Notes: a model not told the origin generated them from the sequence alone. A DNA stretch of 64,000 bases from Spizellomyces punctatus DAOM BR117 (GCA_000182565.2 KQ257474.1); one strand, 5' to 3'. Counted from the first letter of the stretch, positions 1 to 26,576 are shown. Program-made: numbers and translations.

Positions 1-25
1 CCTAGCCAACGACGTTCTGGGACAT

Positions 26-2641
26 TTGAAACTCCAAACCTTGGTTCAGGAACCCCCGTTACCCAGTTTCGCGGTGACGCTCAAGAATCCAGACATCCTT
101 ATCCCCTGCTCCATAACGGATGAGCTGGACACCGATCACATGCGCGGCACGCCATACAAGACCAAGCAGGGTGAATTCATGAAGGATGTGTCAATGCCAC
201 GGCTGACCAAAGCCAAAGCTCAGAAGTCTAGATTAACCATGTTAATCACGGGACAGACGCGCGTGGCAGCCCAAACTTTTCTCATCGAAAACCCTCTTGA
301 GGCCACCGCTGCTAGCTCAACGGTCCCGTTAGGCCTCAAACTGTCCACCGCGACCCATAATTCGGTTGCGGACCCCGAAGAGAACATTTCCAAAGAAGAA
401 TGGCAGACACTTCGGAACAAATGGAACCTCGACTCTACGGAGAGGGCTCCAGGGGCCTTCGAAGCCCAATTAAAAGACGCGGAACGTTTCCACGTCGATC
501 TCAAGCGACCCAAACCCGTGGTCTGGGCCCTAATCAACATTCTACGACACTTCCATCAAGCCTTCAGCTATGAGGGTCATCTCATAGGGAACTACACCAA
601 GATTCCTTATGCGCCTCGATTTATCTCGGCTCCGCCACCCCTTTCGAGGCCACGGTCGTACTCTCCGTTGGAGCGGACAGCCCTCGAGACGGAGCGAGAC
701 ACCATGATGGGGCTTCAGAGGTGGAAACGAACCACCGAAGTAACCTTCGCCAGCGATCCTGTTATCATTCGCTACGCAGACAAACCCCCGCGGGTAGCCT
801 TCGACTATCGCCGAGCCAACGACTGCATGGCCTGGGATCCATATCCCTTTCCCATCATGCTCGACATCCTGAACTGGATCGTCGCAGTCCCATTCCGATA
901 CATATCGGGAGGTGACGCAAACAAAGGATTCTACCAAATCGCCATCACCGATGCGTCGGTACGCAAATGGCTCGCGCTCAGACTCCATGACGGCATCTAC
1001 GAACCACTCTTTATGCCCTTCGGACCCAAGACTGCCCCCTCGCACTTCTGTCGGGTGATGGACGACACCTTGGGTCCCTCCAAATGGCGAAATATCAACA
1101 ACTTCGTCGACGATATCCATACACGAGCGGAGACAGCCGCGGAAGCCCTAGATGCCATCGCGGACTGGCTCGACCGCTTTTCCAGAGCCAAACTCACCCT
1201 AAGACTCGACAAGTGTCAATGGCTCTTTCACCAGCTCACGGCCCTCGGTTTCGTTGCCTCCTCTCAGGGTCTCGCTACCGATCCAGACAAGGTCGCAACC
1301 ATAGTCGATTGGCCACAACCCAAATTCATAGGTGACCTATGGTCATTCGTGGGTCTCCTAGGGTTCTACGCCCAATTCATTTCTCGCTACGCGGAACTCG
1401 TCCGACCCCTGCAAGACGCTATCCAAGAGGGCGTTCGCGAATACCGAGACCTTAAAAAGGGTCGCGCTGACCCGAAGAAAGGCGCTGAAAAGCTCAATTC
1501 ACCATCCATGCTCGACACGGCAGTGGCCCCAACAATCACAGCAACCGGAGCCCGATTTGAGGTTTCGCAACATCTTAAATCTAGCTCCTCAGACCTACCG
1601 GCGGTCAATCTACGCCAATCATCGCTGGCGGACTTACCCATTGACCCCTTTTGTGTCGGACGCCTTGCTCGCAAGCGCCCCGACCAAGGTCTGCGCAGAT
1701 TCGTCGCGAAGCGTGAAGTTTCATGGACCGACTCCCGAAACTCTGCCTTCGCAGCCGCCAAGCAGGCTCTGACAACAGCTCCAGTGCTTGCGGCACCCAG
1801 AAAAGGGTTCCCCTACACCCTTCACAGTGACGCTTCCTACACAGCGTTTAATGTCACGCTCGAACAGTTACAGCCGGATGCTTCTAAACGCCCGCTGTGC
1901 TACCATTCCCGAGGCACCACCACCTCGGAAAAGAAGGCCCCCCCCGTCGAACTCGAGGCCGGATGCCTCATTTGGGGCCTCGGAAAACTCCGCCCATACC
2001 TCGAAGGCCTGCCTTTCACGGTCATTACTGATCACCGAGCTCTTTTGTGGCTCGCTAAATACAAAGGCGAGAACCGTAAGCTTCTCCGCTGGGCCCTCGA
2101 TCTTAGTTACTGGTCCGAATGGATGACAATCGTACACAAACCAGGACGCTTCCACATAGTCGCTGATACACTTTCGCGGCTACTTGGCGCGGAAACTCTT
2201 CTTTGCTCTACCGGGACCGAAATATGGGTGTCGGAACGCAAAGGACGACGGCCGCGCACCCCGCCAGCTGCTCTCGCACCTTCCTCGACACTGGCAGATG
2301 CCGTCTTTCGTCTGGCCTTACAGCCTGCACTCATTGCCGCCATCCGCGCTGGCCTCACCGGCCAGCTCCACCCCATAGCCCAACAGGCCCGCATGCTCCT
2401 ATGGGAGACCAGCCCCGACACCTACACTACAGCTGACGCGCGCTTTCATCAGGACTGGCAACGTGCAGATAACCTGCTGTGGCACCGTTTTTCAGTCTCC
2501 GAAGACCTTTGGTGCCTCTACGTGCCCCCTGCTTGCACCCCTGAGGTGCGCAAGCTTTTTCACGAGGGGGGAGGACACTTCGGATTCGAAAGAACCTACG
2601 CTAGAGCTGCAGCACAAGTCTGGTGGCCGAAAATGGCATAA
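26..2641 (+). CDS. pol: A1 pol: reverse transcriptase, RNase H and start of integrase Zn finger (ORF open from window start; ends at in-frame TAA)
   Basis: GDANKGFYQI, FGPKTAP, FVDD, LHSDAS, ITDHRAL, GHFG motifs. Confidence 0.9.
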   Translation: MKLQTLVQEPPLPSFAVTLKNPDILIPCSITDELDTDHMRGTPYKTKQGEFMKDVSMPRLTKAKAQKSRLTMLITGQTRVAAQTFLIENPLEATAASSTVPLGLKLSTATHNSVADPEENISKEEWQTLRNKWNLDSTERAPGAFEAQLKDAERFHVDLKRPKPVVWALINILRHFHQAFSYEGHLIGNYTKIPYAPRFISAPPPLSRPRSYSPLERTALETERDTMMGLQRWKRTTEVTFASDPVIIRYADKPPRVAFDYRRANDCMAWDPYPFPIMLDILNWIVAVPFRYISGGDANKGFYQIAITDASVRKWLALRLHDGIYEPLFMPFGPKTAPSHFCRVMDDTLGPSKWRNINNFVDDIHTRAETAAEALDAIADWLDRFSRAKLTLRLDKCQWLFHQLTALGFVASSQGLATDPDKVATIVDWPQPKFIGDLWSFVGLLGFYAQFISRYAELVRPLQDAIQEGVREYRDLKKGRADPKKGAEKLNSPSMLDTAVAPTITATGARFEVSQHLKSSSSDLPAVNLRQSSLADLPIDPFCVGRLARKRPDQGLRRFVAKREVSWTDSRNSAFAAAKQALTTAPVLAAPRKGFPYTLHSDASYTAFNVTLEQLQPDASKRPLCYHSRGTTTSEKKAPPVELEAGCLIWGLGKLRPYLEGLPFTVITDHRALLWLAKYKGENRKLLRWALDLSYWSEWMTIVHKPGRFHIVADTLSRLLGAETLLCSTGTEIWVSERKGRRPRTPPAALAPSSTLADAVFRLALQPALIAAIRAGLTGQLHPIAQQARMLLWETSPDTYTTADARFHQDWQRADNLLWHRFSVSEDLWCLYVPPACTPEVRKLFHEGGGHFGFERTYARAAAQVWWPKMA

Positions 2642-4984
2642 GATTTCAGAAAACATTGCGCAGGATGTGAAACCTGCCAATGCTCAAAAAGGGTACCGCA
2701 ACTGATTCCGGGGTTGTTGAAACCCATACCACCAGCTCCGGGACGCTGGACAGTCATCACGACTGACTTCGTAACCAAGCTCCCACTTACTTCCAGAGGG
2801 TACGATGCCTTTTGGTTAATAGCATGTAAATGCTCAAAGAGGATCCACGTATGGCCCCTCAAGAGCACTGCGACAGCTATTCAGGTCGCGGAACTCTTTA
2901 TAGAGCGCTACGTCCCATTGCACGGCATCCCGGAGACCATTATCTCGGACCGCGACTCCAAATTTACGAGTCGATTTTGGCAGGAGGTCTGCAAAAACCT
3001 AAAGATTAATCAAGAGCTCACCACAGCCTACCACCCTCAAGGTGATGGACAATCAGAAAGAGACAACGCAACGGTCTTGCAGGTCCTTACCACAATGGTC
3101 AACACCCGATTAGATGACTGGGACACCTTTCTTCCGGTTGCGGAATTCATTATCAACGATACGGTACACGAGGCGACAAAAATGACGCGATTCAGAATGG
3201 ACCTAGGCTATGAGCCCCACAATCCACTGGCGGACATCGTCGAAAGGCCGTCAGAAACCAGAAATGCAGATGCGGAGGAGCTCTGTAAACACCTCGGCGA
3301 CCTAAACATCCTTATCCGAGATCTGATGATCGAAGCCCAGGATTCGCAGAAAAGATATTACGATTTATCGCGACGACATTTGGAGTTCCGGAGAGGAGAT
3401 AAGGTGCTTCTGAGCACGAAAAACCTAGCAGGGTATGAGTCCAAGATCACTCCGAAATGGCTGGGACCAGTCACGGTGACCGACTGTAACCCTCTCCGCG
3501 ACAACTACGAGTTAAAACTGCCAGACAAGATGAGACGACTTCATCCATGGTTTCACATATCGAAATTACGTCCGTACCAGAAGCCTGTCGACGCCGAAAC
3601 TGAGGAAAAGGTCGCGGAAGCACAAGCGGAGGATTCCGACGCTTCAGATGGCGAGTTTGAAGTGGAAGCGATAGTAGACCATCGAACCAGGCGCGGAAAA
3701 CGTCAATTTCGAATACGTTGGTCCGGATACCCACCCCATGAGGATACCTGGGAACCAGAGGAAGCCCTAACAGAGGCTTCCGAAGCCTTAGAAGAGTACT
3801 GGAGATCCAGAGCTCCCACTAGCGCGCTAGTAGAGGACTCTTTGGTAGTCAGCCTTGCAGGCGACGCCCCGGAAGATACGGCTTATGCTTCCGACCACCA
3901 ATGCTTCGCGGTTTATCCGGACGATAGCTCACGTGATAATCACGCCCTCTCACCAGAAAGAAAACCAGTTTCGCGTGGCTTACCTCACCAGTCGAGAACG
4001 CCACACCAAGCCTCCCGATCACGCTTACGCGCGTCCGAGCTGTCAAAATCAGCCGGCGACGACCTTAAAAGGACGCCCCTGCACGCTCCCCCTCTTTTTT
4101 CTTCTTCAACCGCCCACGACCTACTTCCCTTACACACTCACTCTGCTTCGCAAACCCCTTCTATCGACACCGAAACTAAAACTTCCATTTCTAACACAAT
4201 GAACACCGATCTCAGAGGACAAGCAGGAGTGAGCGTACCCTCCACGTACATGTCCGGCTACCCTTGGGAGGAAGACTCGGGCGACTTCGAGGCCGAGGGC
4301 GTGCTGGATCGCCTTGGGGTTGCGATCGCTACCTGGGTTCACTCCTGGGTTCATCAGCTTCGGACCAACCCCAACGCGCCGCTGCAGACTCCAGGGCATG
4401 AGTTTTGGCTGGGAGTCGACGCTCCGAAACCTTACGCGGTGGGCCAGCCCCTCACAAACCACATCGCGGACCCCTACAGCAAGGCCACCGATGGTGGTGA
4501 AGCAGCGGTCGGAATAGTTGCCGACGCGAAAAAACCCGGAAAAAGAGGGCGCCCAGCTCCGTGCGCCGCTTGGCTCGACCGCGGGGTTCCCCAACACGAG
4601 GCGGGAAGCCGAAAAACGGCTCCGTTCACCGATTGGCCGAACGACGACGCCCACGAGTTTGCGTCCGCCGTCATTGAAGCAGCTAGGACGGTGCTCCTAA
4701 GGACGGCGAACGCAGCGGAAGCCTCTGCAAGGCTCACCAGACCCCGACATCACGAGCACGCGGAGTACCATTTCCGCGCGACAAACCTGAAAAGGGCCGC
4801 GGAGACCTTTACGGCCCTCTACGTAACCAGAACTGGCCCCGACGTGACCCCGGGTACCATCGTTCGTACCGCAACAGATCAAATCTGGTTTTGTTGCAAC
4901 GTCGGTGGCCGTGCCAGTATCATCTGGGTCGTGAACCAAGATGCAGATGAAGCGGACCCCACAGATCCGGTACCGACCTGGTAA
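2642..4984 (+). CDS. A1 integrase core, GPY/F region, chromodomain, linker and C-terminal ORF X (same frame as upstream pol)
   Basis: TTDFV, SDRDSKF, HPQGDGQSER, KWLGP, FEVEAIVDHR...RIRWSGY...DTWEPEE. Confidence 0.88.
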   Translation, partial: DFRKHCAGCETCQCSKRVPQLIPGLLKPIPPAPGRWTVITTDFVTKLPLTSRGYDAFWLIACKCSKRIHVWPLKSTATAIQVAELFIERYVPLHGIPETIISDRDSKFTSRFWQEVCKNLKINQELTTAYHPQGDGQSERDNATVLQVLTTMVNTRLDDWDTFLPVAEFIINDTVHEATKMTRFRMDLGYEPHNPLADIVERPSETRNADAEELCKHLGDLNILIRDLMIEAQDSQKRYYDLSRRHLEFRRGDKVLLSTKNLAGYESKITPKWLGPVTVTDCNPLRDNYELKLPDKMRRLHPWFHISKLRPYQKPVDAETEEKVAEAQAEDSDASDGEFEVEAIVDHRTRRGKRQFRIRWSGYPPHEDTWEPEEALTEASEALEEYWRSRAPTSALVEDSLVVSLAGDAPEDTAYASDHQCFAVYPDDSSRDNHALSPERKPVSRGLPHQSRTPHQASRSRLRASELSKSAGDDLKRTPLHAPPLFSSSTAHDLLPLHTHSASQTPSIDTETKTSISNTMNTDLRGQAGVSVPSTYMSGYPWEEDSGDFEAEGVLDRLGVAIATWVHSWVHQLRTNPNAPLQTPGHEFWLGVDAPKPYAVGQPLTNHIADPYSKATDGGEAAVGIVADAKKPGKRGRPAPCAAWLDRGVPQHEAGSRKTAPFTDWPNDDAHEFASAVIEAARTVLLRTANAAEASARLTRPRHHEHAEYHFRATNLKRAAETFTALYVTRTGPDVTPGTIVRTATDQIWFCCNVGGRASIIWVVNQDADEADPTDPVPTW
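4199..4984 (+). CDS. ORF X allele 1, 261 aa, unknown function (own ATG, in frame with pol)
   Basis: Gapless ~60% aa identity (hand count) to 25158-25943, same length, no stops in either. Confidence 0.75.
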   Translation: MNTDLRGQAGVSVPSTYMSGYPWEEDSGDFEAEGVLDRLGVAIATWVHSWVHQLRTNPNAPLQTPGHEFWLGVDAPKPYAVGQPLTNHIADPYSKATDGGEAAVGIVADAKKPGKRGRPAPCAAWLDRGVPQHEAGSRKTAPFTDWPNDDAHEFASAVIEAARTVLLRTANAAEASARLTRPRHHEHAEYHFRATNLKRAAETFTALYVTRTGPDVTPGTIVRTATDQIWFCCNVGGRASIIWVVNQDADEADPTDPVPTW

Positions 4985-5041
4985 TTGACGTCCCAACACC
5001 CCCGCTCGGAGCGCCGGTGCGTTGGCTCTTCAAAGGGGGGA

Positions 5042-5641
5042 TGTAATGACGAGGACGTCTTCGAGAGATCGCGAGTAAGCCCAAATCGGACGCGGGAAGC
5101 ACGAATCGCGTGACCAACTCCACCGATTGGGTTACCGCGACCGAAAAAACCGGTTCGGAGAATGGCAATTGGCGCATTAGATTTCAGCGTGCCTCGTACA
5201 ACCTGTGGAGGCCCGAGCCAGTGCGGAAAAGGAAGAGATCGGTACCGCCACCAATAAATCAGTTGCGGTGCAGCGACACCCATTAGTTTAGTTTAGTTTA
5301 ACAGTTTATCCAAGAATCTTGTATAAAAAGGATGTATTCAATAAAATAAGTCGGGGGCAGAAGCCGTAGCGACAAAAAATCCCCATAACTCGCTTCTCAA
5401 CTCCAATCTTAGGTTAACAGGAACCTAACAGAGCGCTTCAACGGCCTGATCACCCGTACCGAAGCCTCTAAATCCTGCTCGGTTCACAACTAACCGACTC
5501 TCCTTGCCTCTCGCCCTCAAGTCGCTACCGACGCCCAAAGAAAGGATTTGGAGACTACGATTCCTAGTACGGACACCCACACAACCTGCTAGGAGACCCA
5601 AGTTGTCTTTACCGTAGTCTACCAACAAAAAATCCGTTACA
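5042..5641 (+). repeat. Family A 3' LTR with type-1 U3 (600 bp)
   Basis: TGT...TTACA; from TATAAAAA (~5322) onward it matches the other family A LTRs, upstream part unrelated. Confidence 0.9.
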
Positions 5642-5673
5642 TTATACACCGGGTATATCATATTGTAAGCTGG

Positions 5674-5725: not shown

Positions 5726-8700
5726 TCGGAAATGAAAGTTTGTGTTTTGGTGTTGATAGAAAAGGTTTGTGAAGCAGAGTAGGTCTGTAAGGGAGATAGG
5801 TTGTAGGTAGTTGAAGAAGAAAAAAGAGGGGGAGCATGCAGGGGCATCCTTTTAAGGTCGTCGCTGGCTGATTTTGACAGCTCGGATGCATGTAAGCGTG
5901 ATCAGGAGGCTTGGTGTGGCGTTCTTGACTGGTGAGGTAAGCTGCGCAAAACTGGTTTTCTTTCTGGTGAGAGGGTGTGATTATCACGTGAGCTATTGTC
6001 CGGATAAACTGCGAAGCATTGGTGGTCGGAAGCATAAGCTGTATCTTCCAGGGTGTTGCCTTCAAGGCTGACTACCAAAGAGTCCTCTACTAGTGTGCTA
6101 GTGGGAGCTCTGGATCTCCAGTACTCTTCTAAGGCTTCGGAAGCCTCTGTTAGGTCTTCCTCTGATTCCCATGTATCCTCATGGGGTGGATATCCGGCCC
6201 AACATATTTGAAATTGACACTTTCTGCGCCTGGTTCAATGGTCTACTATTGCTTCCACTTTGAACTCGCCTTCTGAAGTGTTGGAATCCTCCGCTTGTGC
6301 TTCCGCGACCTTTTCCTCAGTTTCGGCGTCGACAGGCTTCTGGTACGGACGTAATTTCGATATGTGAAACCATGGATGAAGTCATCTCATCTTGTCTGGC
6401 AGTTTTAACTCGTAGTTGTCATGGAGAAGGTTTCAGTCGATCACTGTGACTGGTCCCAGCCATTTTGGAGCGCTCTTGGACTCATACCCTGCTAGGTTTT
6501 TCATGCTCAGAAGCACCTTATCTCCTCTCTGGAACTCCAAATATTGTCACAATAAATTGTAATATCTTTTCTGCGAATCCTGGGCTTCGATCATCAGATC
6601 TCGGATAAGGATGTTTAGGTCGCCGAGGTGTTTACAGAGCTCCTCCGCATCTGCATTTCTGGTTTCTGACGGCCTTTCGACGATGTCCGCCAGTGGATTG
6701 TGGGGCTCATAGCCTAGGTCCATTCTGAATCGCGTCATTTTTGTCGCCTCGTGTACCGTATCATTGATAATGAATTCCGCAACCGGAAGAAAGGTGTCCC
6801 AGTCGTCTAATTGGGTGTTGACCATTGTGGTAAGGACCTGCAAGACTGTTGCATTGTCTCTTTCTGATTGTCCATCACCTTGAGGGTGGTAGGCTGTGGT
6901 GAGCTCTTGATTAATCTTTAGGTTTTTGCAGACCTCCTGCCAAAATTGACTTGTAAACTTGGGGTTGTGGTCCAAGATAACAGTCTCCGGAATGCTGTGC
7001 AATGGGATGTAGCATTCTATGAAGAGTTCCATGACCTGAATAGCTGTCATGGTGCTCTTGAGGGGCCATACATGGATCCTCTTTGAGCATTTACATGCTA
7101 TTAGCCAAAAGGCATTGTACCCTCTGGAAGTAAGTGGGAGCTTGGTTATGAAGTCAGTTGTGATGACTGTCCAGCATCCTGGAGCTGGTGGTATGGGTTT
7201 CAGCAACCCCAGAATCAGTTGCAGTACCCTTTTTGAGCATTGACAGATTTCACATCCTGCGCAGTGTTTTCTGAAATCTTGTGCCATCTTTGGCCACCAG
7301 ACTTGTGCTGTGGCTCTGGTGTAGGTTCTTTCGAATCCAAAGTGTCCTCCCCCCTCATGAAAAAGCTTGCACACCTCGGGGGTGCAAGTGGGGGGCATGT
7401 AGAGGTGCCAAAGGTCTTCAGAGACTGAAAAATGGTGCCACAGCAGGTTATCTGCACGTTGCCAGTCCTGAAGAAAGTGTGTGTCAGCTGTAGTGTAGGT
7501 GTTGGGGCTGGTCTCCCATAGGAGTGTGCAGGCCTGTTGGGTTATGGGGTGGAGCTGGCCAGTGAGGCCAGTGTGGATGGTGGCAATGAGTGCAGGCTGT
7601 AATGCCAGACAAAAGACAGCATCTGCCAGTGTTGAGGAAGGTGTGAGAGCTGCTGGTGTGGTGCGTGGCCGTCATCTTCCATGTTCTGACACCCATATTT
7701 GGGTCGCAGTGGAGCAGAGAAGGGTTTCCGCTCCTAGTAGCTGTGAAAGTGTATCAGTGACAATGTGAAAATGTCCTGGTTTGTGAATGATTGTCATCCA
7801 TTCAGACCAGTAACTAAGATTGAGGGCCCAGCGGAGAAGCTTACAGTTCTCACCTTTGTATTTAGCAAGCCATAAAAGAGCTCGGTGATTGGTAATGACT
7901 GTGAAAGGCAGGCCTTCAAGGTATGGGCAGAGTTTTCCAAGGCCCCAAATGAGGCATCTGGCCTTGAGTTTGACCAGTGGGGCCTTCTTTTCCAGGGTGG
8001 TGGTGCCTTGGGAGTGGTAGCACAGCAGGTGTTTGGAGGCATCCAGCTGTAACTGTTTGAGTGTGACATTAAACATGGTGTAGGAAGTGTCACTGTGAAG
8101 GGTGTAGGGGAACCCTTTTCTGGGTGCTGCGAGCACGGGAGCTGTTGTCAGTGCCTGTTTGGTGGCTGCAAAGGCAGAGTTTCGGGAATCAGTCCATGAA
8201 ACTTCACGCTTTGTGATAAATCTGTGCAGACCTTGGTTGGGGCGCTTGCAAGCAAGGTGTCTGACACAAAAGGGGTCAATGGGCACATCTGCCAGTGATG
8301 ATTGGCATAGATTGACTGCTGGTAGGTCTGAGGAGCTAGATTTTGGATGATGTGAAACCTCAAATCGGGCTCTGGTGGCTGTGATTGTAGGGGCCACTGC
8401 CGTGTTGAGAGCATGGATGGTGAATTGAGCTTTTCAGCACCTTTCTTTGGGTCAGCATGACCCTTTTTAAGGTCTTGGTATTCATGAATGCCCTCTTGGA
8501 TAGCATCTTGCAGGGGTCAGATGAGTTCTGTGTAGTGAGGGATGAATTGGGCATAGAACCCTAGGAGACCCATGAAGGACCATAGGTCACCTATGAATTT
8601 GGGTTGTGGCCAATCAACTATGGTTGTGACCTTGTCTGGATTGGTAGTGAGACCCTGGGAGGAGGCAATGAAACTGAGAGCTGTGAGCTGGTGAAAGAGC

Positions 8701-9590
8701 CATTGACACTTGTTGAGTCTTAGGGTGAGTTTGGCTCTGGAAAAGCGGTCGAGCCAGTCTGCGATGGCATCTAGGGCTTCTGCGGCTGTCTCTGCTCATG
8801 TATGGATATCATTGATGAAGTTGTTGATATTTTGCCATTTGGAGGGACCCAAGGTGTTGTCCATTACCTGACAGAAGTGCAAAGGGGCAGTCTTGGGTCT
8901 GAAGGGCATAAAGAGTGGTTCATAGATGCCGTCATGGAGTCTGATCATGAGCCATTTGCGTACTGACACATTGGTGATGGTGATTTGGTAAAATCCTTTG
9001 TTTGTGTCACCTCCTGATATGTATTGGAATGGGACTGTGACGATCCAGTTCAGGATGTCGAGCATGATGGGAAAGGGATATGGGTCCCAGGCCATGCAGT
9101 CATTGGCTTGGTGATAGTTGAAGGCTACCTGCGGGGGTTTGTCTGCATAGTGAATGATAACAGGATCACTGGTGAAGGTTACTTTGGTGGTTTGTTTCCA
9201 CCTCTGAAGCCCCATCATGGTGTCTCGCTCCGTCTCGAGGGCTGTCCGCTCCAACGGAGAGTACGACCGTGGCCTCGAAAGGGGTGGCGGAGCCGAGATA
9301 AATCGAGGCGCATAAGGAATCTTGGTGTAGTTCCCTATGAGATGACCCTCATAGCTGAAGGCTTGATGGAAGTGTTGTAGAATGTTGATTAGGGCCCAGA
9401 CCACAGGTTTGGGTTGCTTGAGATCAATGTGGAAACGTTCTGCATCTTTTAATTGGGCTTTGAAGGCCCCTGGAGCCTTCTCTGTAGAGTTGAGGTTCCA
9501 TTTGTTCTGAAGTGTCTGCCATTCTTCTTTGGAAATGTTCTCTTTGGGGTCTGCAACCAAATTATGGGTTGTGGTGGACAGTTTGAGGCC

Positions 9591-10201
9591 TGTAACAGGC
9601 TAGCAGGGACAAGAAGACAACAGAAAACTAGGGAAGACTTGGTTACTACTTGTTATTTCCCTTTGAGGGGCCTCAGAGAGGTCCTCTTTTTATAGACAAA
9701 TGGGGCTGACAAATGCTATATCCTAACTACCCAATCAGATCTCACCCACATCATCCTAAACTATTTGTCAGCCTATTGCACCATTTGCAACCAATCAGAA
9801 CTCATACATGTCATCCTAAACTATTTGTCAGCCTATTGCACCATTTGCAACCAATCAGATCTGACAGATGTCATCCTAAACTATTTGTCAGCCTATTGCA
9901 CCATTTGCAACCAATCAGATCTTATACATGTCATCCTAAACTATTTGTCAGCCTATTGCACCATTTATAGCCAATCACAAGTGAGACAAGTCATCCTAAA
10001 TACACTGTGCCACTTGATTGAAAGGGGCAGATGCTAGTGTGTCAGGATACTCATCTAATTTAGCCAGAAATGGCTAAATCTGCTTATTTATCTAATTCTG
10101 GTCAAATGAATGTTGACACCATCAGCAAAGTCATGTGACCGCTAGTTTGGAACCACATCTAACCAGTATAACTATAGCACTGACAGAAGAATTCTGTCAC
10201 A
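9591..10201 (-). mobile_element. Family B solo LTR inserted in A2
   Basis: Matches 15377-15806; 5-bp TSD AGGCC (9586-9590 / 10202-10206). Confidence 0.95.
9731..10000. repeat. 60-bp tandem repeat (~4.5 units) with CCAATCA boxes inside the B LTR
   Basis: Lines 9781, 9841, 9901 repeat with period 60; other B LTRs are ~180 bp shorter. Confidence 0.95.
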
Positions 10202-13187
10202 AGGCCTAACAGGGGTGTTGAGCTAGCTGCGGTGGCCTCAAGAGGGTTTTCGATGAGAAAAGTTTGGGCTGCCATGCGCGTCTGTCCCGTGATTAACATG
10301 GTTAATCTAGACTTCTGAGCTTTGGCTTTGGTCAGCCGTGGCATTGACACATCCTTCATGAATTCGCCCTGCTTGGTCTTGTATGGCATGCTGTGCATGT
10401 GATCGGTGTCCAGCTCATCTGTTATGGAGCAAGGGATAAGGATGTCCGGATTCTTGAGCATCACCACGAAACTGGGTAACAGGGGTTCCTGAACCAAGGT
10501 TTGGAGTTTCAAATGTCCCAGAACGTCATTGGCTAGGATGATGAGAGATTTCCTGTATGCAATGACTTGGAAATAGGCGCAGAAAGTCAGGTATTCTCCT
10601 CCGCAGCCTCTGAGGGAAGTTTCAAGGCATACTGTCTTGGTAGATGAGATATGTCCACCAATGCCATTGAAAGCCATCATTTCTGCATCCTGCAAATCGG
10701 TTTTGGAGAACAGAAGGCCCTGGTACGTGTCGGAAACCAGAGACTCACAGGCTCCTGTGTCTAGTACCACAGGTGCCCAGAGCTGAGCGATGATGGCTAG
10801 CATCCAGCAAGGCTGTGTTTGGGTCTTGGTCTGGCTTTTGAGTACATTGCCTAAATCTACCAAGTAGAAGGCGTTGATGGAAGGCACTGTGACCTCGAAA
10901 TGGGGCGCAATGTCGTTACTTGTTGCTTCTGTAGCCTTGATTGCACTCTCAAAGTGCTCTCTAGATTTGTTGTTTTGTGGTTTTGTTGTTTTATTCTGGC
11001 GAGCAACTTGTTCGATAGCCAGCATGACTATACGCGTCCGTTCGCTCTCTTCGTGTCTTTGGAGACGTGGATGGTCTTTAACGTGCAGAAATTTGGGGTT
11101 TCCGTGATGATAATAATAGTCTGAGCGAACGATATTGCCTGTCAGGAGAAATGCCACCAGTTGCAGGTTGGCATAAGAATCAAAGATAACAGGATCTTCG
11201 GAGCTCCACATCAAGAATTTCTCACACTCGTTGAGCCTTATCCAGGCAAGGAGGATCAAACGAGGGGTACCGTCTTCTCGGACTTTTCACAGGATTCGAT
11301 CCTTGTCAGCTTCGGCTGCGGCAGCAATGTAGAGGTGGTGGGAACTCCACGCGACTGCGTAGGGGTCGTTCCCAAGGTGCCCGGTGCCTCGCTTCGGTTC
11401 TTTGGCGAAGAAGCTGAGCGCGCGGGGGTTGTTGCCCATCATCAGAGCCACTTGCGGGGTGCCCCAGATGATGGCTATGTTGTCCCAGACTTGGTCCCAG
11501 CCCTGCGTGGGCATGCGGGGGTCCTCTTCCTTGGTCACCGTGACCTTGGAAAGAGGTGCGGTCATCAAAATTGTTGATTCCGAGTGCTCGGGTGAATGAA
11601 AGAATCCGATGGTGTGGAATCCTTGATTAGCGGCGGCTGTCCTTTCCAGTTCCGAAGCCGAAAAAAGAGTCTCGGTGGTAGCGGACGTCGAGTCCAGCTC
11701 CACTATGTATGACTTCTTGGACTCCTGTTTGGGTTTCCAACCTGCGGGCATGGGTGCTCCATATGGTCCCTTCTTTCCATCTTCAGGATCTTTTCGGTTC
11801 GGGTTCTGCCAGCAGAAAACATTCCAATGCTTTTTCTGACAGAATTTGCAGGGTGCTGGTGGTTCTGTGTTGGGGTCCGGAACCATCTTCTGAGGGCCGT
11901 CGCGACCCTTTTCGGGGTTTCCGGTTTTATGTTGAGCCGTCTGCTTAGGGCCTTTGTCGATTGCGGTCTTTTGTGACTTCTTCTGAGCTTCAGCAGCACC
12001 GCTGTAGCAAGGGTCTCGTTTTCTGGTGTCATCAGAGCCGAAATAAAGGCACAGGAAGTCTTTTAATTTGGTCAGCTTCGTGACGTTACAGGATTTGACC
12101 ATGATTTGGATGTTGCTGGGCAATTGTTTGACTATTAGGTTGAAATGCTGGTCAGCAGGACATTCTATGTTTGCCCAGTCGCCATAAGCAAGGTGCTGGA
12201 GATGAGTTTTGTGGTTGATGAATGCAAGAAAGCTGTGAAATTCTTTGGGGTTTGCATGACAGCACACATATTCAGCTTTGTGCTTGGATTCGGTTAGGGG
12301 GTCTCGGAACTCTTGAAGCAGTTCTTCCTTCCACCTTTTCCAGGTCCATGAGCAAGTTTCCTGGGCTTCCAGAGTGTAAAACCAGGTGTTGGCAGGGGTT
12401 TTCTTGGCTATCATGGCTGGTAGGAGCTGTACCATCCTGGCATCTGATGTTGTGCTAATGTTTTGAAGAAGTTGGACTTTGTTAAGCCATTCTTCAATGT
12501 CTTGGTTTCTTTTGCCTGTAAACTTGGGTATGTCCTTTGCTTTCAAGGAATTGACCTTGGTGTTGCTGGCCCACGGGGCCACTGGCACTTGGATTGGAGG
12601 CACCGCACCTGAAAAACTTGGTTCGGTACGCTCCCTTGGTGTGTCCGCCGTTTCCCACGGGGTTGCGGACCGTTCTCTTGTAGCTCGTGCTATGAGAGGT
12701 TGTTCAGGCAGCGGGTGATGCGCTAGGGCTTCTAAGGCTCATGTGAGGTGCTCATCCACCGCTGTCTGACATTCAGAAAGCCTATGAAGCTGTTCCATAA
12801 GATTTTGAGTTGCCAACTGCATTGCAGCAGTTGAGCGGGCAATGTCTTCTTTTAATGCTGCCACTTCAGAGGCCATCATGGCCAAGTTAGGGGCTTCTGG
12901 TTTGATGGAAGTGGTCCCTGAATGCCTTGGGTGTGTTGCGGGAGAGACTTTGACGTCCTCTGCAGGACCCTGACTATGAGTCTGGATCACAGGTGAGTGG
13001 CCTCATGTTGGTGAGTGTTTGACCAGCATCATTCTCGGTTTCATGAAGTTCTGTCTCCGAAACAAGAGAAAAAGTTTCTGAGTAGCTACCTGAGTGGATC
13101 TCGGTTTGTGCAAGAGTTTTGGTATGACCAAATAAGGTTTTCAGCTGAATTTGAGAGGGGAAGGCAGTTTGTTGTGCTTCTCCACCA

Positions 13188-13760
13188 TGTAATGGATTTT
13201 TTGTAGGTAGACTACGGTAAAGACAACTTGGGTCTCCTAGCAGGTTATGTGGGTGTCCGTACTAGGAATCATAGTCTCTGAATCCTTTCTTTGGGTGTTG
13301 GTAGTGAATTGGGGGTGAGAGGCAAGAAGAGTTGGTTAGTTGTGAACCGAGCAGGATTTAGAGGCTTCAGTGCAGGTGATCAGGCTGTTGAAGTGCTCTG
13401 TTAGGTTCCTGGTAACCTAAGATTGGAGTTGAGAAGCTAGTTGTGGGGATTTTGTGTTGCTATGGCTTCTGCCCTGCTGACTTATTTTTTTGAATTTGTC
13501 TTTTTATACAAGAATATGCTATGGTAACATCTACACTAGTTTCCGTAGCCTTCATTAGGGTGGCGGCATCTGATCTTCCCATCTCGGACCATTGCCATGA
13601 TTGATCATGGCTGTGTAACATATCCTTCACGCTGCGCTGGTGTAGCCCAGAACCGAGCTTGATCTTAGGGGTTTTGAAGCTTAGGTTACAATTGCAGAAA
13701 CCTCAATCGTGGTCACCTGATGCCTTTGAGCAAACTGGTCTATCAGAGTCATTCGCTACA
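13188..13760 (-). repeat. Family A 5' LTR of A2 (type-2 U3)
   Basis: Reverse complement of 17749-18320, followed by PBS TGGTGGAGAA. Confidence 0.93.
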
Positions 13761-17748: not shown

Positions 17749-18320
17749 TGTAGCGAACGACTCTGATAAACCGGTTCACTCAAAGGCATCAGGTGACCAC
17801 AATTGAGGTTTCCGCAATTGTAACCTAAGCTTCGAAACCCCTAAGATCAAGCTTGGTTCTGGGCTACACCAGCGCAGCGTGAAGGATATGTTACGCAGCC
17901 ATGATCGATCATGGCGATGGTCCGAGATGGGAAGATCAGACGCCGCCACCCTAATGAAGGCTATGGAAACTAGTGTAGATGTTACCGTAGCATATTCTTG
18001 TATAAAAAGAGGAATTCAATAAAATAAGTCGGCGGCCAGAAGCCGTAGTGACACTAAATCCCCACAACTAGCTTCTCAACTCCAATCTTAGGTTAACAGG
18101 AACCTAACAGAGCGCTTCAACGGCCTGATCACCCGCACTGAAGCCTCTAAATCCTGCTCGGTTCACAACTAACCGACTCTCCTTGCCTCTCGCCCTCAAG
18201 TTGCTACCGACACCCAAAGAAAGGATTTGGAGACTACGATTCCTAGTACGGACACCCACATAACCTGCTAGGAGACCCAAGTTGTCTTTACCATAGTCTA
18301 CCAACAAAAAATCTGTTACA
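17749..18320 (+). repeat. A3 5' LTR (type-2 U3)
   Basis: Near-identical to 26001-26572. Confidence 0.95.
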
Positions 18321-18330
18321 TGGTGGAGAA
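18321..18330 (+). promoter_or_regulatory. Family A primer-binding site, probably tRNA-Ala
   Basis: TGGTGGAGAA is complementary to a ...TTCTCCACCA tRNA 3' end typical of tRNA-Ala. Confidence 0.6.
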
Positions 18331-20007
18331 GCATGACGAACTGCCTTCCCCTCTCAAATTCAGCTGAAAACCTTATTCGGTCATACCGAAACTCTTGCGC
18401 AAACCGAGATCCGCTCAGGTAGCTACTCGGAAACCTTTTCTCTCATTTCGGAAACAGACTTCACGAAACCGAGAATGATGCCGGTCGAACGCTCTCCAAC
18501 GCGAGGCCGCTCACCTGTGATCCAGACTCATAGTCAGGGTCCTGCGGAGGACGTCGAAGTCCCTCCTGCAACACGCCCAAGGCGTTGAGGGACCACTTCC
18601 GTCAAACCGGAAGCCCCTAACTTGGCCACGATGGCCTCTGAAGTGGCAGCGTTAAAAGAAGACATTGCCCGCTCGACTGCTGCAATGCAGTTGGCAACTC
18701 AAAATCTTACGGAACAGCTTCATAGGCTTTCCGAACGTCAGACAGCGGCGGATGAGCACCTCGCACGAGCCTTAGAAGCCCTAGCGCATCGCCCGCTGCC
18801 TGAACAACCTCTCATAGCATGAGCTACAAGAGAACGGTCCGCAACCCCGTGGGAAACGTCGGACACACCAAGGGAGCATACCGAACCAAGTTTTTCAGGT
18901 CCGGTGCCTCCAATCCAAGTGCCAGCGGCCCCGTGGGCCAGCGACACCAAGGTTGATTCCTTGAAAGCAAAGGACGTACCCGAGTTTACGGGCAAAAGAA
19001 ACCAAGACGTTGAAGAATGGCTCAACAAAGTCCAACTTCTTCAAAACGTTAGCGCAATGTTGGATGCCAGGATGGTACAGCTCCTACCAGCCATGATAGC
19101 CGAGAAAACCCCTGCTGACGCTTGGTTTTACACTCTGGAAGCCCAGGAAACTCGCTCGTGGACCTGGAAAAGGTGGAAAGAAGAACTGCTTCGAGAGTTC
19201 CAAGATCCCCTAACTGAGTCCAAGCGCAAAACCGAATATGTGCGCTGCCACGCGAACCCCAAAGAATTTTGCAGCTTTCTTGCGTTCATTGACCACAAAA
19301 CTCATCTCCGGCGCCTCGCATACGGCGACTGGGCAAACATAGAATGTCCCGCTGACCAGCATTTTGACCTAATAGTCAAACAATTGCCCAGCGACATCCA
19401 AATCATGGTCAAATCCTGTAACGTCACGAACCTGACCAAATTAAAAGACTTCCTGCGCCTTTATTTCGGCTCTGATGACACCAGAAAACGAGACCCTTGC
19501 TACAGCGGTGCTGCTGAAGCTCAGAAGAAGTCACAAAAGACCGGAACCGACAAAGGCCCTAAGCAGACGGCTCTGCATAAAACCGGAAACCCCGAAAAGG
19601 GTCGCGATGGTCCTCAGAAGATGGTTCCGGACCCCAACAAGGAACCACCGGCACCCTGCAAATTCTGTCAGAAAAAGCATTGGAATGTTTTCTGCTGGCA
19701 GAACCCGAACCGAAAAGATCCTGAAGATGGAAAGAAGGGACCATATGGAGCACCCATGCCCGCAGGTTGGAAACCCAAACAGGAGTCCAAGAAGTCATAC
19801 ATAGTGGAGCTGGACTCGACGTCCGCTACCACCGAGACTCTTTTTTCGGCTTCGGAACTGGAAAGGACAGCCGCCGCTAATCAAGGATTCCACACCATCG
19901 GATTCTTTCATTCACCCGAGCACTCGGAATCAACAATTTTGATGACCGCACCTCTTTCCAAGGTCACGGTGACCAAGGAAGAGGACCCCCGCATGCCCAC
20001 GCAGGGC

Positions 20008-20300
20008 TGGGACCAAGTCTGGGACAACATAGCCATCATCTGGGGCACCCCGCAAGTGGCTCTGATGATGGGCAACAACCCCCGCGCGCTCAGCTTCTTC
20101 GCCAAAGAACCGAAGCGAGGCACCGGGCACCTTGGGAACGACCCCTATGCAGTCGCGTGGAGTTCCCACCACCTCTACATTGCTGCCGCAGCCGAAGCTG
20201 ACAAGGATTGAATCCTGTGAAAAGTCCGAGAAGACGGTACCCCTCGTTTGATCCTCCTTGCCTGGATAAGGCTCAACGAGTGTGAGAAATTCTTGATGTG
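20008..20300 (+). other. Degenerate DIRS/Dam-like N6-adenine methyltransferase-like domain in family A polyprotein
   Basis: WGTPQVALMM...LGNDPYAVAWSSHHLYI...RIL(R)KVREDGTPRLILLAW parallels the DIRS MT pattern; by-eye only. Confidence 0.6.
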
Positions 20301-23300: not shown

Positions 23301-25157
23301 ATTGCCGCCATCCGCGCTGGCCTCACCGGCCAGCTCCACCCCATAGCCCAACAGGCCCGCATGCTCCTATGGGAGACCAGCCCCGACACCTACACTACAG
23401 CTGACGCGCGCTTTCATCAGGACTGGCAACGTGCAGATAACCTGCTGTGGCACCGTTTTTCAGTCTCCGAAGACCTTTGGTGCCTCTACGTGCCCCCTGC
23501 TTGCACCCCCGAGGTGCGCAAGCTTTTTCATGAGGGGGGAGGACACTTCGGATTCAAAAGAACCTACGCTAGAGCTGCAGCACAAGTCTGGTGGCCGAAA
23601 ATGGCATAAGATTTCAGAAAACATTGCGCAGGATGTGAAACCTGCCAATGCTCAAAAAGGGTACCGCAACTGATTCCGGGGTTGTTGAAACCCATACCAC
23701 CAGCTCCGGGACGCTGGACAGTCATCACGACTGACTTCGTAACCAAGCTCCCACTTACTTCCAGAGGGTACGATGCCTTTTGGCTAATAGCTTGTAAATG
23801 CTCAAAGAGGATCCACGTATGGCCCCTCAAGAGCACTGCGACAGCTATTCAGGTCGCAGAACTATTTATAGAACGCTATGTCCCATTGCACAGCATCCCG
23901 GAAACTATCATCTCAGACCATGACCCCAAATTTACGAGTTGATTTTGGCAGGAGGTCTGCAAAAACCTAAAGATTAATCAAGAGCTCACCACAGCCTACC
24001 ACCCTCAAGGTGATGGACAATCAGAGAGAGACAACGCAATGGTCTTGCAGGTCCTTACCACAATGGTCAACACCCGATTAGATGACTGGGACACCTTTCT
24101 TCCAGTTGCAGAATTCATTATCAACGATACGGTACACGAGGCGACAAAAATGACGCAGTTCAAGATGGACCTAGGCTATGAGCCCCACAATCCACTGGCG
24201 GACATCGTTGAAAGGCCGTCAGAAACCAGAAATGCAGACACGGAAGAGCTCTGTAAACATCTCAGAGACCTAAACATCCTTATCCGGGATCTGATGATCG
24301 AGGCCCAGGACTCGCAGAAAAGATATTATGATTTATTGCGACGACATCTGGAGTTCCGGAGAGGAGATAAGGTGCTTCTGAGCACAAAAAACCTAGCAGG
24401 GTATGAGTCCAAGATCGCTCCGAAATGGCTGGGACCAGTCACAGTGACTGACTGCAACCCTCTCCGCGACAACTATGAGCTAAAACTGCCAGACAAGATG
24501 AGATGACTTCACCCATGGTTTCACATATCGAAATTACATCTGTACCAGAAGCCTGTTGATGCCGAAACTGAGGAAAGGATTGCGGAAGCACAAATGGAGG
24601 ATTCCGATGCTTCAAAAGGTGAGTTCGAAGTGGAAGCGATAGTAGACCATCGAACCAGGCACGGAAAGTGTCAATTTTGAATACGTTGGGCCGGATACCC
24701 ACCCCATGAGGATACCTGGGAACCAGAGGAAGCCCTAACAGAGGCTTCTGAAGCCTTAGAAGAGTACTGGAGATCCAGAGCTCCCACTAGCACACTAGTA
24801 GAGGACTCCTTGGTAGTCAGCTTTGCAGGCAATGCCCCGGCTTATGCTTCTGACCACCAATGCTTCACGATTTATCCGGACAATAGCTCACGTGATAATC
24901 ACGCCCTCTCACCAGAAAGAAAACCAGTTTCGCGTGGCTTACCTCACCAGTTGAGAATGCCACACCAAGCCTCCCGATCACGCTTACGCACATCCGAGCT
25001 GTCAAAATCAGCCGGCGATGACCTTAAAAGGACGCCCCTGCACGCTCCCCCTCTTTTTTCTTCTTCAACTACCTACGACCTATCTCCCTTACAGACCTAC
25101 TCTGCTTCGCAAACCTTGTCTATCGACACCGAGACAAAAGCTTTCGTTTCCAACACC

Positions 25158-25943: not shown

Positions 25944-26000
25944 AAGCGAGGTTCGGGCACTCACAGACAAGTCGCCGAACCTTCTTTTTCGAAGGGGGGA

Positions 26001-26572
26001 TGTAGCGAACGACTCTGATAAACTGGTTCACTCAAAGGCATCAGGTGACCATGATTGAGGTTTCCACAATTGTAACCTAAGCTTCGAAACCCCTAAGATC
26101 AAGCTCGGTTCTGGGCTACACCAGCGCAGCATGAAGGATACGTTACGCAGCCATGATCGATCATGGCGATGGTCTGAGATGGGAAGATCGGACGCCGCCA
26201 CCCTAATGAAGGCTACGGAAACTAGTGTAGATGTTACCATAGCATATTCTTGTATAAAAAGAGGAATTCAATAAAATAAGTCGGCGGCCAGAAGCCGTAG
26301 CGACACTAAATCCCCACAACTAGCTTCTCAACTCCAATCTTAGGTTAACAGGAACCTAACAGAGCGCTTCAACGGCCTGATCACCCGCACTGAAGCCTCT
26401 AAATCCTGCTCGGTTCACAACTAACCGACTCTCCTTGCCTCTCGCCCTCAAGTCGCTACCGACGCCCAAAGAAAGGATTTGGAGACTACGATTCCTAGTA
26501 CGGACACCCACACAACCTGCTAGGAGACCCAAGTTGTCTTTACCGTAGTCTACCAACAAAAAATCCGTTACA
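26001..26572 (+). repeat. A3 3' LTR
   Basis: TGTAGC...GTTACA after PPT. Confidence 0.95.
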
Positions 26573-26576
26573 GAAG

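What the first reader, a model, noticed from the sequence alone, without database searches (positions are those of the whole stretch)
4199..5330. Swappable 'ORF X + LTR U3' cassette on a near-identical Gypsy backbone
Seen: A1 and A3 are nearly identical through pol (mostly CpG transitions) and again from the LTR TATA box (tcttgtataaaaag) to the LTR end. Between these points they differ. ORF X is only ~60% identical in protein (gapless, both 261 aa), and the U3 regions (5042-~5315 vs 26001-~26245) are unrelated. A2 has the A3-type linker and U3. Inference: the accessory protein and the promoter/enhancer segment travel as one exchangeable module. That is what a sequence-specific trans-activator or anti-silencing factor co-evolving with its own LTR would look like (by analogy to foamy-virus Tas or VANDAL VANC). 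It could be an undescribed retrotransposon counter-defence system.
Basis: partly seen in the sequence, partly recalled or inferred. Interest (0 to 1): 0.85.

Follow-up and report, generated by a model that had tools for sequence, protein, structure and literature searches.

The report
Recombinant 3' end of chytrid Gypsy retrotransposon
Two subfamilies of a chytrid-fungus Gypsy retrotransposon share one backbone but carry anciently diverged 3' ends (an uncharacterised conserved protein plus the LTR promoter), a pattern best explained by ordinary recombination during reverse transcription rather than by a matched activator-promoter pair.

Summary
The core observation holds. A1 (1-5641) and A3 (17749-26572) are about 95% identical through pol; 101 of their 163 substitutions are CpG transitions. 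They are 97% identical again from the TATA box to the LTR end. Between those points, ORF X is 156/261 identical with no gaps, and the U3 regions are essentially unalignable.

The element is a chromovirus of a Spizellomyces-like chytrid. ORF X is a real gene under purifying selection (dN/dS 0.15-0.21, dS 1.6-2.2). It has no Pfam, PDB-sequence or fold match, and its relatives occur only in Spizellomycetales and unnamed environmental contigs. It lies in the pol reading frame, after the chromodomain.

The divergent tract runs from 4111, 88 nt before the ATG, to about 5391-5460, past the TATA box. That is the whole 3' end of the genomic RNA. All five copies I could examine share the same 5' breakpoint, which points to one ancestral event. 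The backbone is itself a mosaic of synonymous-site patches.

My best reading is copy-choice recombination during reverse transcription, which moves ORF X and U3 together because they are adjacent. Nothing tested here supports or excludes a trans-activator matched to its own LTR. "A2" is not an independent copy. No whole genome was available, so the co-segregation census could not be run.

The parts
1..5641 (+). A1: a chromovirus copy cut at its 5' end by the window edge. It runs pol (RT, RNase H, integrase, chromodomain), linker, ORF X type 1, PPT and 3' LTR.
   Evidence: Self-BLAST and Pfam RVT_1, RT_RNaseH, Integrase_H2C2, SH3_Tf2-1 and Chromo. The frame 2..4984 has a single internal stop, TAA at 2639.
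3656..3805 (+). Integrase C-terminal chromodomain.
   Evidence: Pfam PF00385, E=8e-17, residues 188-237 of the frame that starts at 3095.
3806..4198 (+). Low-complexity Ser/Thr/Pro-rich linker in the pol frame. It is open all the way into ORF X.
   Evidence: 0 stops in this frame against 3 and 7 in the other two frames. The database gene models P0005 and P0006 read through it. P0002, from a diverged lineage, is collinear with it in the same frame.
4085..4110 (+). Polypyrimidine tract. This is the last stretch shared by both types and the inferred 5' crossover site.
   Evidence: Type-specific sites begin at 4111. Run X2 contigs break at 4081-4110. The diverged P0002 keeps PPFFSS at this position.
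4111..4198 (+). Type-specific segment just before ORF X. It belongs to the exchanged tract.
   Evidence: At 12 sites A1 differs from both A3 and B, which agree with each other. The 10 non-CpG sites among them fall 4/3/3 across codon positions.
4199..4984 (+). ORF X type 1: 261 codons plus the stop. It is a member of an undescribed protein family.
4985..5041 (+). Type-specific linker that ends in the polypurine tract AAAGGGGGGA (5032-5041).
   Evidence: The PPT is shared with A3 (25991-26000).
5042..5316 (+). U3 of type 1. It is part of the 3' LTR (5042-5641, TG..CA).
   Evidence: Contigs from runs X2, X10 and X11 cover it.
5317..5641 (+). Core promoter (TATAAAAA at 5322-5329, AATAAA at 5340-5345) followed by R-U5, shared with A3. 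Sparse type-specific differences continue to 5460.
   Evidence: The R boundaries were not mapped.
17749..26572 (+). A3: a full-length copy with the type 3 module. It comprises the 5' LTR 17749-18320, the PBS TGGTGGAGAAGC, ORF X 25158-25943, the PPT 25991-26000 and the 3' LTR 26001-26572. The target-site duplication GAAG lies at 17745-17748 and 26573-26576.
   Evidence: The two LTRs are 97.0% identical. The element is nested in the gag of another chromovirus.
5729..13760 (-). B: an older inverted copy. Its 5' LTR (13760-13188) carries type 3 U3. It is interrupted at 9591-10202 and truncated at the position equivalent to A1 4191, so it has no ORF X.
   Evidence: B carries 8 in-frame stops, 7 of them CGA>TGA.
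2639..2641 (+). In-frame TAA inside the integrase zinc-binding motif. A1 and A3 share it; B has CAA.
   Evidence: This marker groups the backbones as (A1,A3)|B, whereas the module groups them as (A3,B)|A1.
2134..2261 (+). Patch in A1 taken from a diverged functional lineage. It holds 14 non-CpG differences from A3 and B, which agree; 9 of them are at third codon positions and the conserved protein stretch is unchanged.

Best explanation
**What it is.** The region is the 3' end of a Ty3/Gypsy chromovirus of a Spizellomyces-like chytrid. After the integrase chromodomain, the same reading frame runs through a linker of about 130 codons into a conserved 261-codon domain, ORF X. The polypurine tract and the LTR follow.

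**The two types.** A1-type and A3-type elements share one backbone. Their 3' ends, from about 4111 to about 5391-5460, diverged long ago (dS 1.6-2.2).

**How it most likely arose (inferred).** RNAs of two lineages were packaged together.
1. Minus-strand strong-stop DNA, copied from R-U5 of the backbone RNA, transferred to the 3' R of the other RNA.
2. It copied that RNA's U3, PPT and ORF X.
3. It switched back to the backbone RNA at the conserved polypyrimidine tract (4085-4110).

This happened once, and both forms then amplified. ORF X and U3 travel together because they are neighbours on the RNA. A functional match between them has not been shown.

**What ORF X does (inferred, low confidence, about 0.3).** It is a non-enzymatic accessory domain, made at least partly as a C-terminal extension of Pol/integrase. 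It acts in a nuclear step such as import or chromatin or nucleic-acid contact, through a conserved basic K-x-G-K-R-x-R loop.
For: **Shown**
- Chromovirus domains are present. A3 has LTRs, a PBS, a PPT and a 4-bp target-site duplication.
- Divergence steps sharply: 95% identity up to about 4100, then 49-71% per 100 nt across ORF X, 38-48% in the linker and U3, and 94-100% from 5373.
- ORF X has dN 0.345 and dS 1.61, ratio 0.21 (NG86), or 0.15 by YN00. Differences by codon position are 81/71/136. The block is old and constrained, not fast-evolving in place.
- The 5' breakpoint is the same in every copy examined. Type 1 (A1, P0005) and type 3 (A3, P0006) show only 2 fixed amino-acid differences in about 195 residues upstream, then dense differences from 'SSST|' onward. 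B follows type 3.
- The backbone is itself recombinant. Of 24 non-CpG sites upstream of 4111 where A1 alone differs, 14 fall within the 128 bp from 2134 to 2261, and 9 of those 14 are third codon positions. Of 38 non-CpG sites where A3 alone differs, 19 fall in 3058-3647, and 11 of those 19 are third positions.
- The TAA at 2639 groups A1 with A3 against B, while the module groups A3 with B against A1.
- Both LTRs of A3 carry the same chimeric U3/R-U5 and are flanked by a target-site duplication. The structure was therefore integrated as one unit.
- The mechanism is described in print: an intermolecular first-strand transfer merges R/U5 of one RNA with U3 of the other, and copy-choice switches follow (PMC6894440, passages read).

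**ORF X**
- The frame is open from pol into ORF X.
- The family has 9 members at E<=1e-3 among 1.84 billion representatives.
- AlphaFold2 gives pLDDT 83.6 and pTM 0.86 when distant relatives are included in the alignment.
- The protein is acidic and has no membrane segment. No conserved catalytic-type residues stand out, but a basic loop is conserved.
Against: - R was not mapped. The AATAAA at 5340 and the TATA box at 5322 could mean a very short R ending before 5391-5460. The 3' boundary would then lie in U5 and would need a second template switch, or DNA-level conversion, rather than the strand transfer.
- The donor lineage's backbone was not seen.
- A1's 5' LTR, gag and protease lie outside the window.
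- Only two ORF X copies with DNA and four LTRs were available. The other copies are known only as database proteins.
- Against translation as a Pol fusion:
  - The Met at the ORF X start is conserved in all three Spizellomyces types.
  - Four distant relatives with complete N-termini (P0008, P0009, P0011, P0013) are recorded as stand-alone proteins of 248-284 residues.
  - The type-specific sites in 4111-4191 show no third-position bias (4/3/3).
- No mismatched ORF X/U3 pairing was seen. This is also what functional coupling would predict.
Confidence: 0.65

Rival explanations
1. Co-adapted module. ORF X is a trans-acting factor, an activator or anti-silencer, that recognises its own U3. Selection therefore keeps only exchanges that move both parts together.
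For: - ORF X and U3 differ together.
- Contigs from runs X1 and X2 run from type-1 ORF X into type-1 U3 without a branch.
- B pairs a type-3 pre-ORF segment with a type-3 U3.
- ORF X is conserved and constrained.
- ORF X has a flexible basic loop. In type 1 it reads KRGRP, which resembles an AT-hook core (resemblance recalled, not tested).
- The exchanged tract also includes 88 nt upstream of the ATG.
Against: - Physical adjacency plus a single founding event explains the linkage, because all copies share one breakpoint.
- No dN/dS window exceeds 0.4.
- The protein is acidic overall, pI 5.1-5.7.
- There is no Pfam, PDB-sequence or fold match to any DNA-binding protein or activator.
- The frame is continuous with pol, which is not how Tas or VANC are encoded (recalled).
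- U3 divergence is what neutral decay gives at dS above 1.5.
Confidence: 0.12
2. DNA-level exchange. Ectopic recombination or gene conversion between integrated copies made the backbone uniform, or swapped the 3' end, without involving reverse transcription.
For: - A1 and A3 lie 21 kb apart in the same orientation.
- Short conversion-like patches exist in the backbone.
- The window shows other DNA rearrangements: the palindromic junction at 5642-5728, and tandem Copia elements that share LTRs.
- If R is short, the 3' boundary at 5391-5460 may lie beyond it.
Against: - The same mosaic with the same breakpoint is seen in gene models on two other contigs, P0005 and P0006.
- Both LTRs of A3 carry the chimeric structure and a target-site duplication flanks the element, so that form transposed as a unit.
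- The patches are rich in synonymous changes. They came from functional lineages, as expected for co-packaged RNAs.
Confidence: 0.15
3. Rapid divergence in place. One lineage's ORF X and U3 evolved very quickly under diversifying selection while the backbone stayed unchanged.
For: The N-terminal 87 residues have a higher dN/dS (0.37-0.40) than the rest.
Against: - Synonymous sites are saturated (dS 1.6-2.2), whereas the backbone differs by 4%, mostly through CpG decay.
- Overall dN/dS is 0.15-0.21.
- A third allele, P0002, is shared with another Spizellomyces species (P0004). The alleles therefore predate these copies.
Confidence: 0.02

Closest known systems
Chromoviruses (Ty3/Gypsy elements with an integrase chromodomain). 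PMC2864245 reports the Tcn1 clade in a chytrid (passages read).
   Same: RT, RNase H, integrase zinc motif, SH3-like domain and C-terminal chromodomain are all present. So are TG..CA LTRs, a PBS, a PPT and a 4-bp target-site duplication.
   Different: The pol frame continues past the chromodomain into a further conserved 261-residue domain. That domain has no family assignment. It is absent from the second chromovirus in the same window (26669-30559).
Recombinant LTR retrotransposons made during reverse transcription. Sources: the review PMC6894440 (passages read); ONSEN, PMC5668417 (search listing and abstract only); soybean 'LTR swapping', Du et al. 2010 (seen only as a reference).
   Same: Copies are mosaics. 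U3 comes from one parent and R-U5 from the other. There are further internal switch tracts, and the recombinants have amplified.
   Different: The parents here are far more diverged in the exchanged tract (dS above 1.5), and the tract carries a whole protein domain. RNA co-packaging and the position of R were not shown.
Murine leukaemia virus polytropic/MCF recombinants, which replace env and U3 together (recalled; no call).
   Same: The 3' coding region and the adjacent U3 are replaced as one block by recombination with a related element.
   Different: ORF X is not an envelope protein. It has no membrane segment and is acidic and soluble-looking. No selective advantage of the swap is known here.
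   Same: An element-encoded accessory protein lies next to the element's own regulatory DNA, with alleles that differ between subfamilies.
   Different: There is no sequence or fold similarity to any known family. ORF X is in frame with pol. Binding and activation were not tested.
LTR retrotransposons with extra ORFs: Cer1 CERV (PMC10309623) and bdelloid rotifer elements (PMC5408684), both seen only as search listing and abstract.
   Same: There is an additional conserved coding region besides gag and pol.
   Different: The protein family, its position (after the chromodomain, in the pol frame) and the host group (Spizellomycetales) are all different.

Membership tests
Chromovirus (Ty3/Gypsy) | RT, RNase H and integrase in Gypsy order, with a chromodomain at the integrase C-terminus | tested here: met
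   Pfam RVT_1, RT_RNaseH, Integrase_H2C2, SH3_Tf2-1 and Chromo (E=8e-17), in that order.
Chromovirus (Ty3/Gypsy) | LTRs with TG..CA ends, a PBS after the 5' LTR, a PPT before the 3' LTR, and a target-site duplication | tested here: met
   A3 has 572-bp LTRs that are 97.0% identical, the PBS TGGTGGAGAAGC, the PPT GAAGGGGGGA and the duplication GAAG.
Recombinant made by reverse-transcription copy choice | Sharp changes of parentage along the element, with markers in different segments giving conflicting groupings | tested here: met
   Identity steps at 4111 and at about 5391-5460. TAA 2639 conflicts with the module grouping. The backbone patches are rich in synonymous changes.
Recombinant made by reverse-transcription copy choice | The U3 / R-U5 junction of parentage lies within R, the site of first-strand transfer | tested here: inconclusive
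   The boundary lies 60-140 nt after the TATA box. R was not mapped, and the laid contigs cannot show transcript ends.
Recombinant made by reverse-transcription copy choice | Both LTRs of a copy carry the same chimeric structure, and the copy has its own target-site duplication | tested here: met
   Met for A3. It could not be tested for A1, whose 5' LTR lies outside the window.
Element-encoded trans-activator or anti-silencer matched to its own LTR (Tas-like, VANC-like) | Sequence or fold homology to a known activator or DNA-binding family | tested here: inconclusive
   Pfam gave 0 families for 10 of 10 members at E<=1. The PDB sequence search gave one chance hit, E=0.19. Foldseek on PDB and BFVD gave 0 matches at E<=0.001. 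VIA wide gave a best Z of 3.9 among 48,161 chains. A missing match does not exclude a new DNA-binding fold.
Element-encoded trans-activator or anti-silencer matched to its own LTR (Tas-like, VANC-like) | Allele-specific binding to, or activation of, the cognate U3 | not testable with these tools
   This needs DAP-seq, EMSA or reporter assays.
Element-encoded trans-activator or anti-silencer matched to its own LTR (Tas-like, VANC-like) | Co-inheritance of factor and target across independent exchange events | tested here: inconclusive
   No mismatched pair was seen. However, all copies trace to one event, so there is no independent replication. No whole genome was held.

The most novel reading that the evidence does not exclude
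ORF X founds an undescribed protein family with a new fold, specific to Spizellomycetales chromoviruses. It acts on the element's own LTR or chromatin in an allele-specific way, for example by activating or protecting the cognate U3, or by steering integration as a second reader domain after the chromodomain. The ORF X+U3 block would then be a functional, exchangeable unit that lets one backbone change both its regulation and its escape from silencing in a single recombination step.
Probability: 0.1. Interest if true: 0.75.

Novelty: new variant of a known kind. Interest (0 to 1): 0.36.

Why it matters
The swap itself is textbook retroelement recombination, so it should not be read as a new counter-defence system.

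Two things are still worth having:
- **A new protein family.** It is conserved and constrained, and it is confidently predicted to fold, yet it has no relative of known structure or function. It sits after the integrase chromodomain of chytrid chromoviruses. Spizellomyces can be transformed (recalled), so its role could be tested directly.
- **A clean natural example.** A very diverged 3' end has been grafted onto a shared backbone in an early-diverging fungus whose repeats decay by CpG transitions. This is useful for studying how retrotransposon lineages exchange promoters.

Tried and rejected
- **Whole genome.** None is held.
- **Earlier notes of this scan.** Nothing by place or by sequence.
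- **Sequencing runs.** No RNA holder is listed. Run X10 is only guessed to be RNA. Its low-depth contigs match 4201-4403 and 5056-5310 with no mismatches, but they show no joints or transcript ends. I draw nothing about expression or splicing from this.
- **Metagenome scan for relatives' DNA.** The first alignment was too diverse. The retry with A4 returned one 1,514-bp contig, L001. Its ORFs show it to be a chance pattern match, so I dropped it.
- **Function by homology.** Every search came back empty:
  - Pfam
  - PDB sequences
  - protein atlas, two queries
  - Foldseek on PDB and BFVD
  - VIA wide
  - profile comparison with the element's own gag, probability 0.06
- **First structure model.** The model built from 8 close sequences was poor (pLDDT 53.9) and was replaced.
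- **'A2' as a third ORF X copy.** Rejected. The 262-codon ORF at 16978-17766 is the gag of another element.
- **Assembly artefact.** Rejected.
- **Rapid divergence in place.** Rejected.
- **Local gene conversion between A1 and A3 as the sole cause.** Made unlikely by P0005 and P0006 on other contigs.
- **A conserved splice acceptor before ORF X.** Reading the sequences by eye, I found no AG shared by both types between the polypyrimidine tract and the ATG. This was not pursued further.
- **An error of my own.** An early note said a CGA>TGA stop lay at 24953 in A3. That was the wrong frame and is withdrawn. The in-frame stops are those listed.
- **Literature.** Four searches found no description of this ORF or of Spizellomyces retrotransposon subfamilies. 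Subscription journals and supplementary files were not searched.
Full report
**1. Layout of the window**

A self-comparison and ORF and Pfam scans show three copies of one Ty3/Gypsy chromovirus.

- **A1** (+, 1-5641) is cut at its 5' end by the window edge.
- **A3** (+, 17749-26572) is full length. Its 572-bp LTRs are 97.0% identical, its PBS is TGGTGGAGAAGC, and its PPT is GAAGGGGGGA. A 4-bp target-site duplication (GAAG) flanks it, and it is nested in the gag of a second chromovirus.
- **B** (-, 13760-5729) is older and inverted. Another repeat interrupts it at 9591-10202. It is truncated at the position equivalent to A1 4191, just before ORF X, and an 87-bp junction follows that holds a perfect palindrome with 23-nt arms.

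The other two LTRs with A3-type U3 are A3's own 5' LTR and B's 5' LTR, and flanking DNA, not a linker, precedes both. The 262-codon ORF at 16978-17766 is a gag of the host element. tblastn finds ORF X only at 4199-4981 and 25158-25940.

The organism is a Spizellomyces-like chytrid. Every close ORF X hit is an S. punctatus DAOM BR117 or S. 'palustris' protein. No whole genome was held.

**2. The observation**

- A1 and A3 are 95.3% identical over 4,234 bp. In 1-4100 there are 163 substitutions, of which 101 are CpG transitions.
- ORF X is 261 codons in both copies, with 156/261 residues identical and no gaps. The two copies differ at 288 of 783 nucleotides.
- The U3 regions align no better than z=1.9 above shuffles. 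Only the TGTA start and a GATC..CCGCCACC block are shared.
- Identity returns at 5317 (96.6%).

Sites where A1 differs from both A3 and B start at 4111, directly after a polypyrimidine tract at 4085-4110. After the TATA box, type-specific differences continue at 5330-5335, 5355-5357, 5375-5376, 5386, 5391, 5457 and 5460. There are none in the last 181 nt.

Independent public runs confirm the joins. Run X1 has one contig over 3578-5071. Run X2 has contigs over 3000-4110, 4081-5071 and 5042-5421. A loose end before 5317 in run X2 reads as the tail of A3-type U3. The 30-nt overlaps at 4081-4110 and 5042-5071 are what de Bruijn branch points would give; that reading is my inference.

**3. What ORF X is**

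ORF X is a real, constrained gene. dN is 0.345 and dS is 1.61, a ratio of 0.21 by NG86 and 0.15 by YN00. No 58-codon window exceeds 0.40, and differences by codon position are 81/71/136.

The family is small:
- four proteins of similar length and two longer ones in the 5.8-billion set;
- nine at E<=1e-3 among 1.84 billion representatives;
- members include a Gaertneriomyces protein and unnamed Logan and JGI proteins of 228-284 residues, three of them on contigs of 7.8-8.3 kb.

At least three alleles exist in Spizellomyces. Type 1 comprises A1, P0005, P0003 and P0007. Type 3 comprises A3, P0006 and P0001. A third type is P0002, which also occurs in S. 'palustris' as P0004.

Homology searches gave nothing: Pfam, PDB sequences and the protein atlas.

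With distant relatives in the alignment, AlphaFold2 gives pLDDT 83.6 and pTM 0.86. The model is an alpha+beta domain with a long helical hairpin and a three-stranded sheet. It has no structural match:
- Foldseek on PDB, best E 0.67;
- VIA wide, best Z 3.9 of 48,161 chains;
- Foldseek on BFVD, best E 0.35.

The protein is acidic and has no membrane segment. It is unrelated to the element's gag. No conserved catalytic-type residues stand out, but it carries a conserved basic loop, A-D-A-x-K-x-G-K-R-x-R.

**4. Separate ORF or part of Pol?**

Evidence for a Pol fusion:
- In A1 the frame from 2 to 4984 has one internal stop, TAA at 2639.
- The 131 codons between the chromodomain and the ATG have 0 stops, against 3 and 7 in the other frames.
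- All the other stops in A3 (5) and in B (7 of 8) sit where A1 has CGA.
- Database gene models P0005 and P0006 read from the chromodomain into ORF X.
- The diverged P0002 is collinear with this linker in the same frame, across three in-frame length differences (my reading).

Evidence against a Pol fusion:
- The Met at the start is conserved in all three types.
- Four distant relatives with complete N-termini (P0008, P0009, P0011, P0013) are stand-alone proteins that start 12-33 residues before the conserved Y/W-P-W motif.
- The non-CpG type-specific sites in 4111-4191 show no third-position bias, 4/3/3.

I take translation as a Pol extension to be the more likely mode in this family, with low confidence.

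**5. How the mosaic arose**

ORF X, the PPT and U3 are contiguous at the 3' end of the genomic RNA. The review PMC6894440 (passages read) describes the relevant mechanism. An intermolecular first-strand transfer joins R/U5 of one co-packaged RNA to U3 of the other, and copy-choice switches follow during minus-strand synthesis. One such transfer, plus one switch back at the conserved tract 4085-4110, gives the pattern seen here.

Supporting points:
- **(a) One breakpoint.** Every copy I could examine has the same 5' breakpoint, which indicates one ancestral event.
- **(b) A patchwork backbone.** The backbone is itself a mosaic of diverged, functional lineages. The A1 patch at 2134-2261 holds 14 non-CpG differences, 9 at third codon positions, with the protein unchanged in the conserved stretch. 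The A3 patch at 3058-3647 holds 19, of which 11 are at third positions.
- **(c) Conflicting markers.** The nonsense TAA at 2639 is shared by A1 and A3 but not by B, whereas the module groups A3 with B. The most economical reading is that the type-1 module was grafted onto a backbone that previously carried type 3.
- **(d) Integration as a unit.** Both LTRs of A3 carry the same chimeric structure inside a target-site duplication.
- **(e) Age of U3.** With dS of 1.6-2.2, unconstrained DNA of the same age is expected to be unalignable. The 'unrelated' U3 therefore does not need a foreign origin.

Open points:
- R is not mapped. If R is very short, the 3' boundary needs a second switch or a DNA-level event.
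- The donor backbone was not seen.
- A1's 5' third is outside the window.

**6.

Co-inheritance of ORF X and U3 is real. It is uninformative, however, because the copies descend from one event and the two parts are adjacent. No test here speaks for allele-specific recognition, and none can exclude it. I put that idea at about 0.1.

**7. Verdict**

- **The swap:** a known kind of retroelement recombination.
- **ORF X:** an undescribed family, apparently of new fold, in chytrid chromoviruses. Four literature searches found no description.
- **Interest:** moderate to low overall.
- **What would decide it:** the genome-wide census and transcript mapping described under next steps.

Noticed in passing
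window 5642-5728: An 87-bp junction lies between the end of A1's 3' LTR and the truncated 3' end of inverted copy B. It holds a perfect palindrome (23-nt arms at 5675-5697 and 5702-5724, 4-nt loop) found nowhere else in the window. It may be a hairpin-repair scar or a foldback fragment.
   Followed up: partly
window 2639-2641 and the A3 equivalent near 23609: A1 and A3 share an in-frame TAA inside the integrase zinc-binding motif, where B has CAA. A1 has no other internal stop in 1,660 codons. These subfamilies may therefore be mobilised in trans, or may read through the stop.
   Followed up: partly
window 16978-17766 and 26573-30559: A second chromovirus family is split by the A3 insertion (target-site duplication GAAG). 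It has gag, a 1,296-residue pol and a chromodomain, but no ORF X.
   Followed up: partly
window 30701-39240: Two Ty1/Copia elements on the minus strand lie in tandem and share LTRs (LTR-internal-LTR-internal-LTR; repeats at about 30704, 34296 and 38727). Related LTR fragments lie at 13978-14474 and 16030-16524.
   Followed up: partly
window 9591-10202: An insertion in copy B is related to repeats at 15372-15806 and 34810-35187. It contains an internal tandem repeat with a period of about 60 nt (9731-10000).
   Followed up: no
window 26870-27104: A short-period tandem repeat (offsets of 18, 36 and 54 nt) lies inside the coding region of the second chromovirus.
   Followed up: no
run X1 contig laid at window 5129-5168 then 5313 onward: A third U3 variant in a public run shares only a 40-nt block with type-1 U3, then joins the common TATA region. 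U3 is therefore itself mosaic among subfamilies.
   Followed up: no
window 39933-63927: Ordinary host genes follow the repeat cluster. They include a steroid 5-alpha-reductase-like gene, an HMGL-like/carboxylase gene and a family-2 glycosyltransferase.
   Followed up: no
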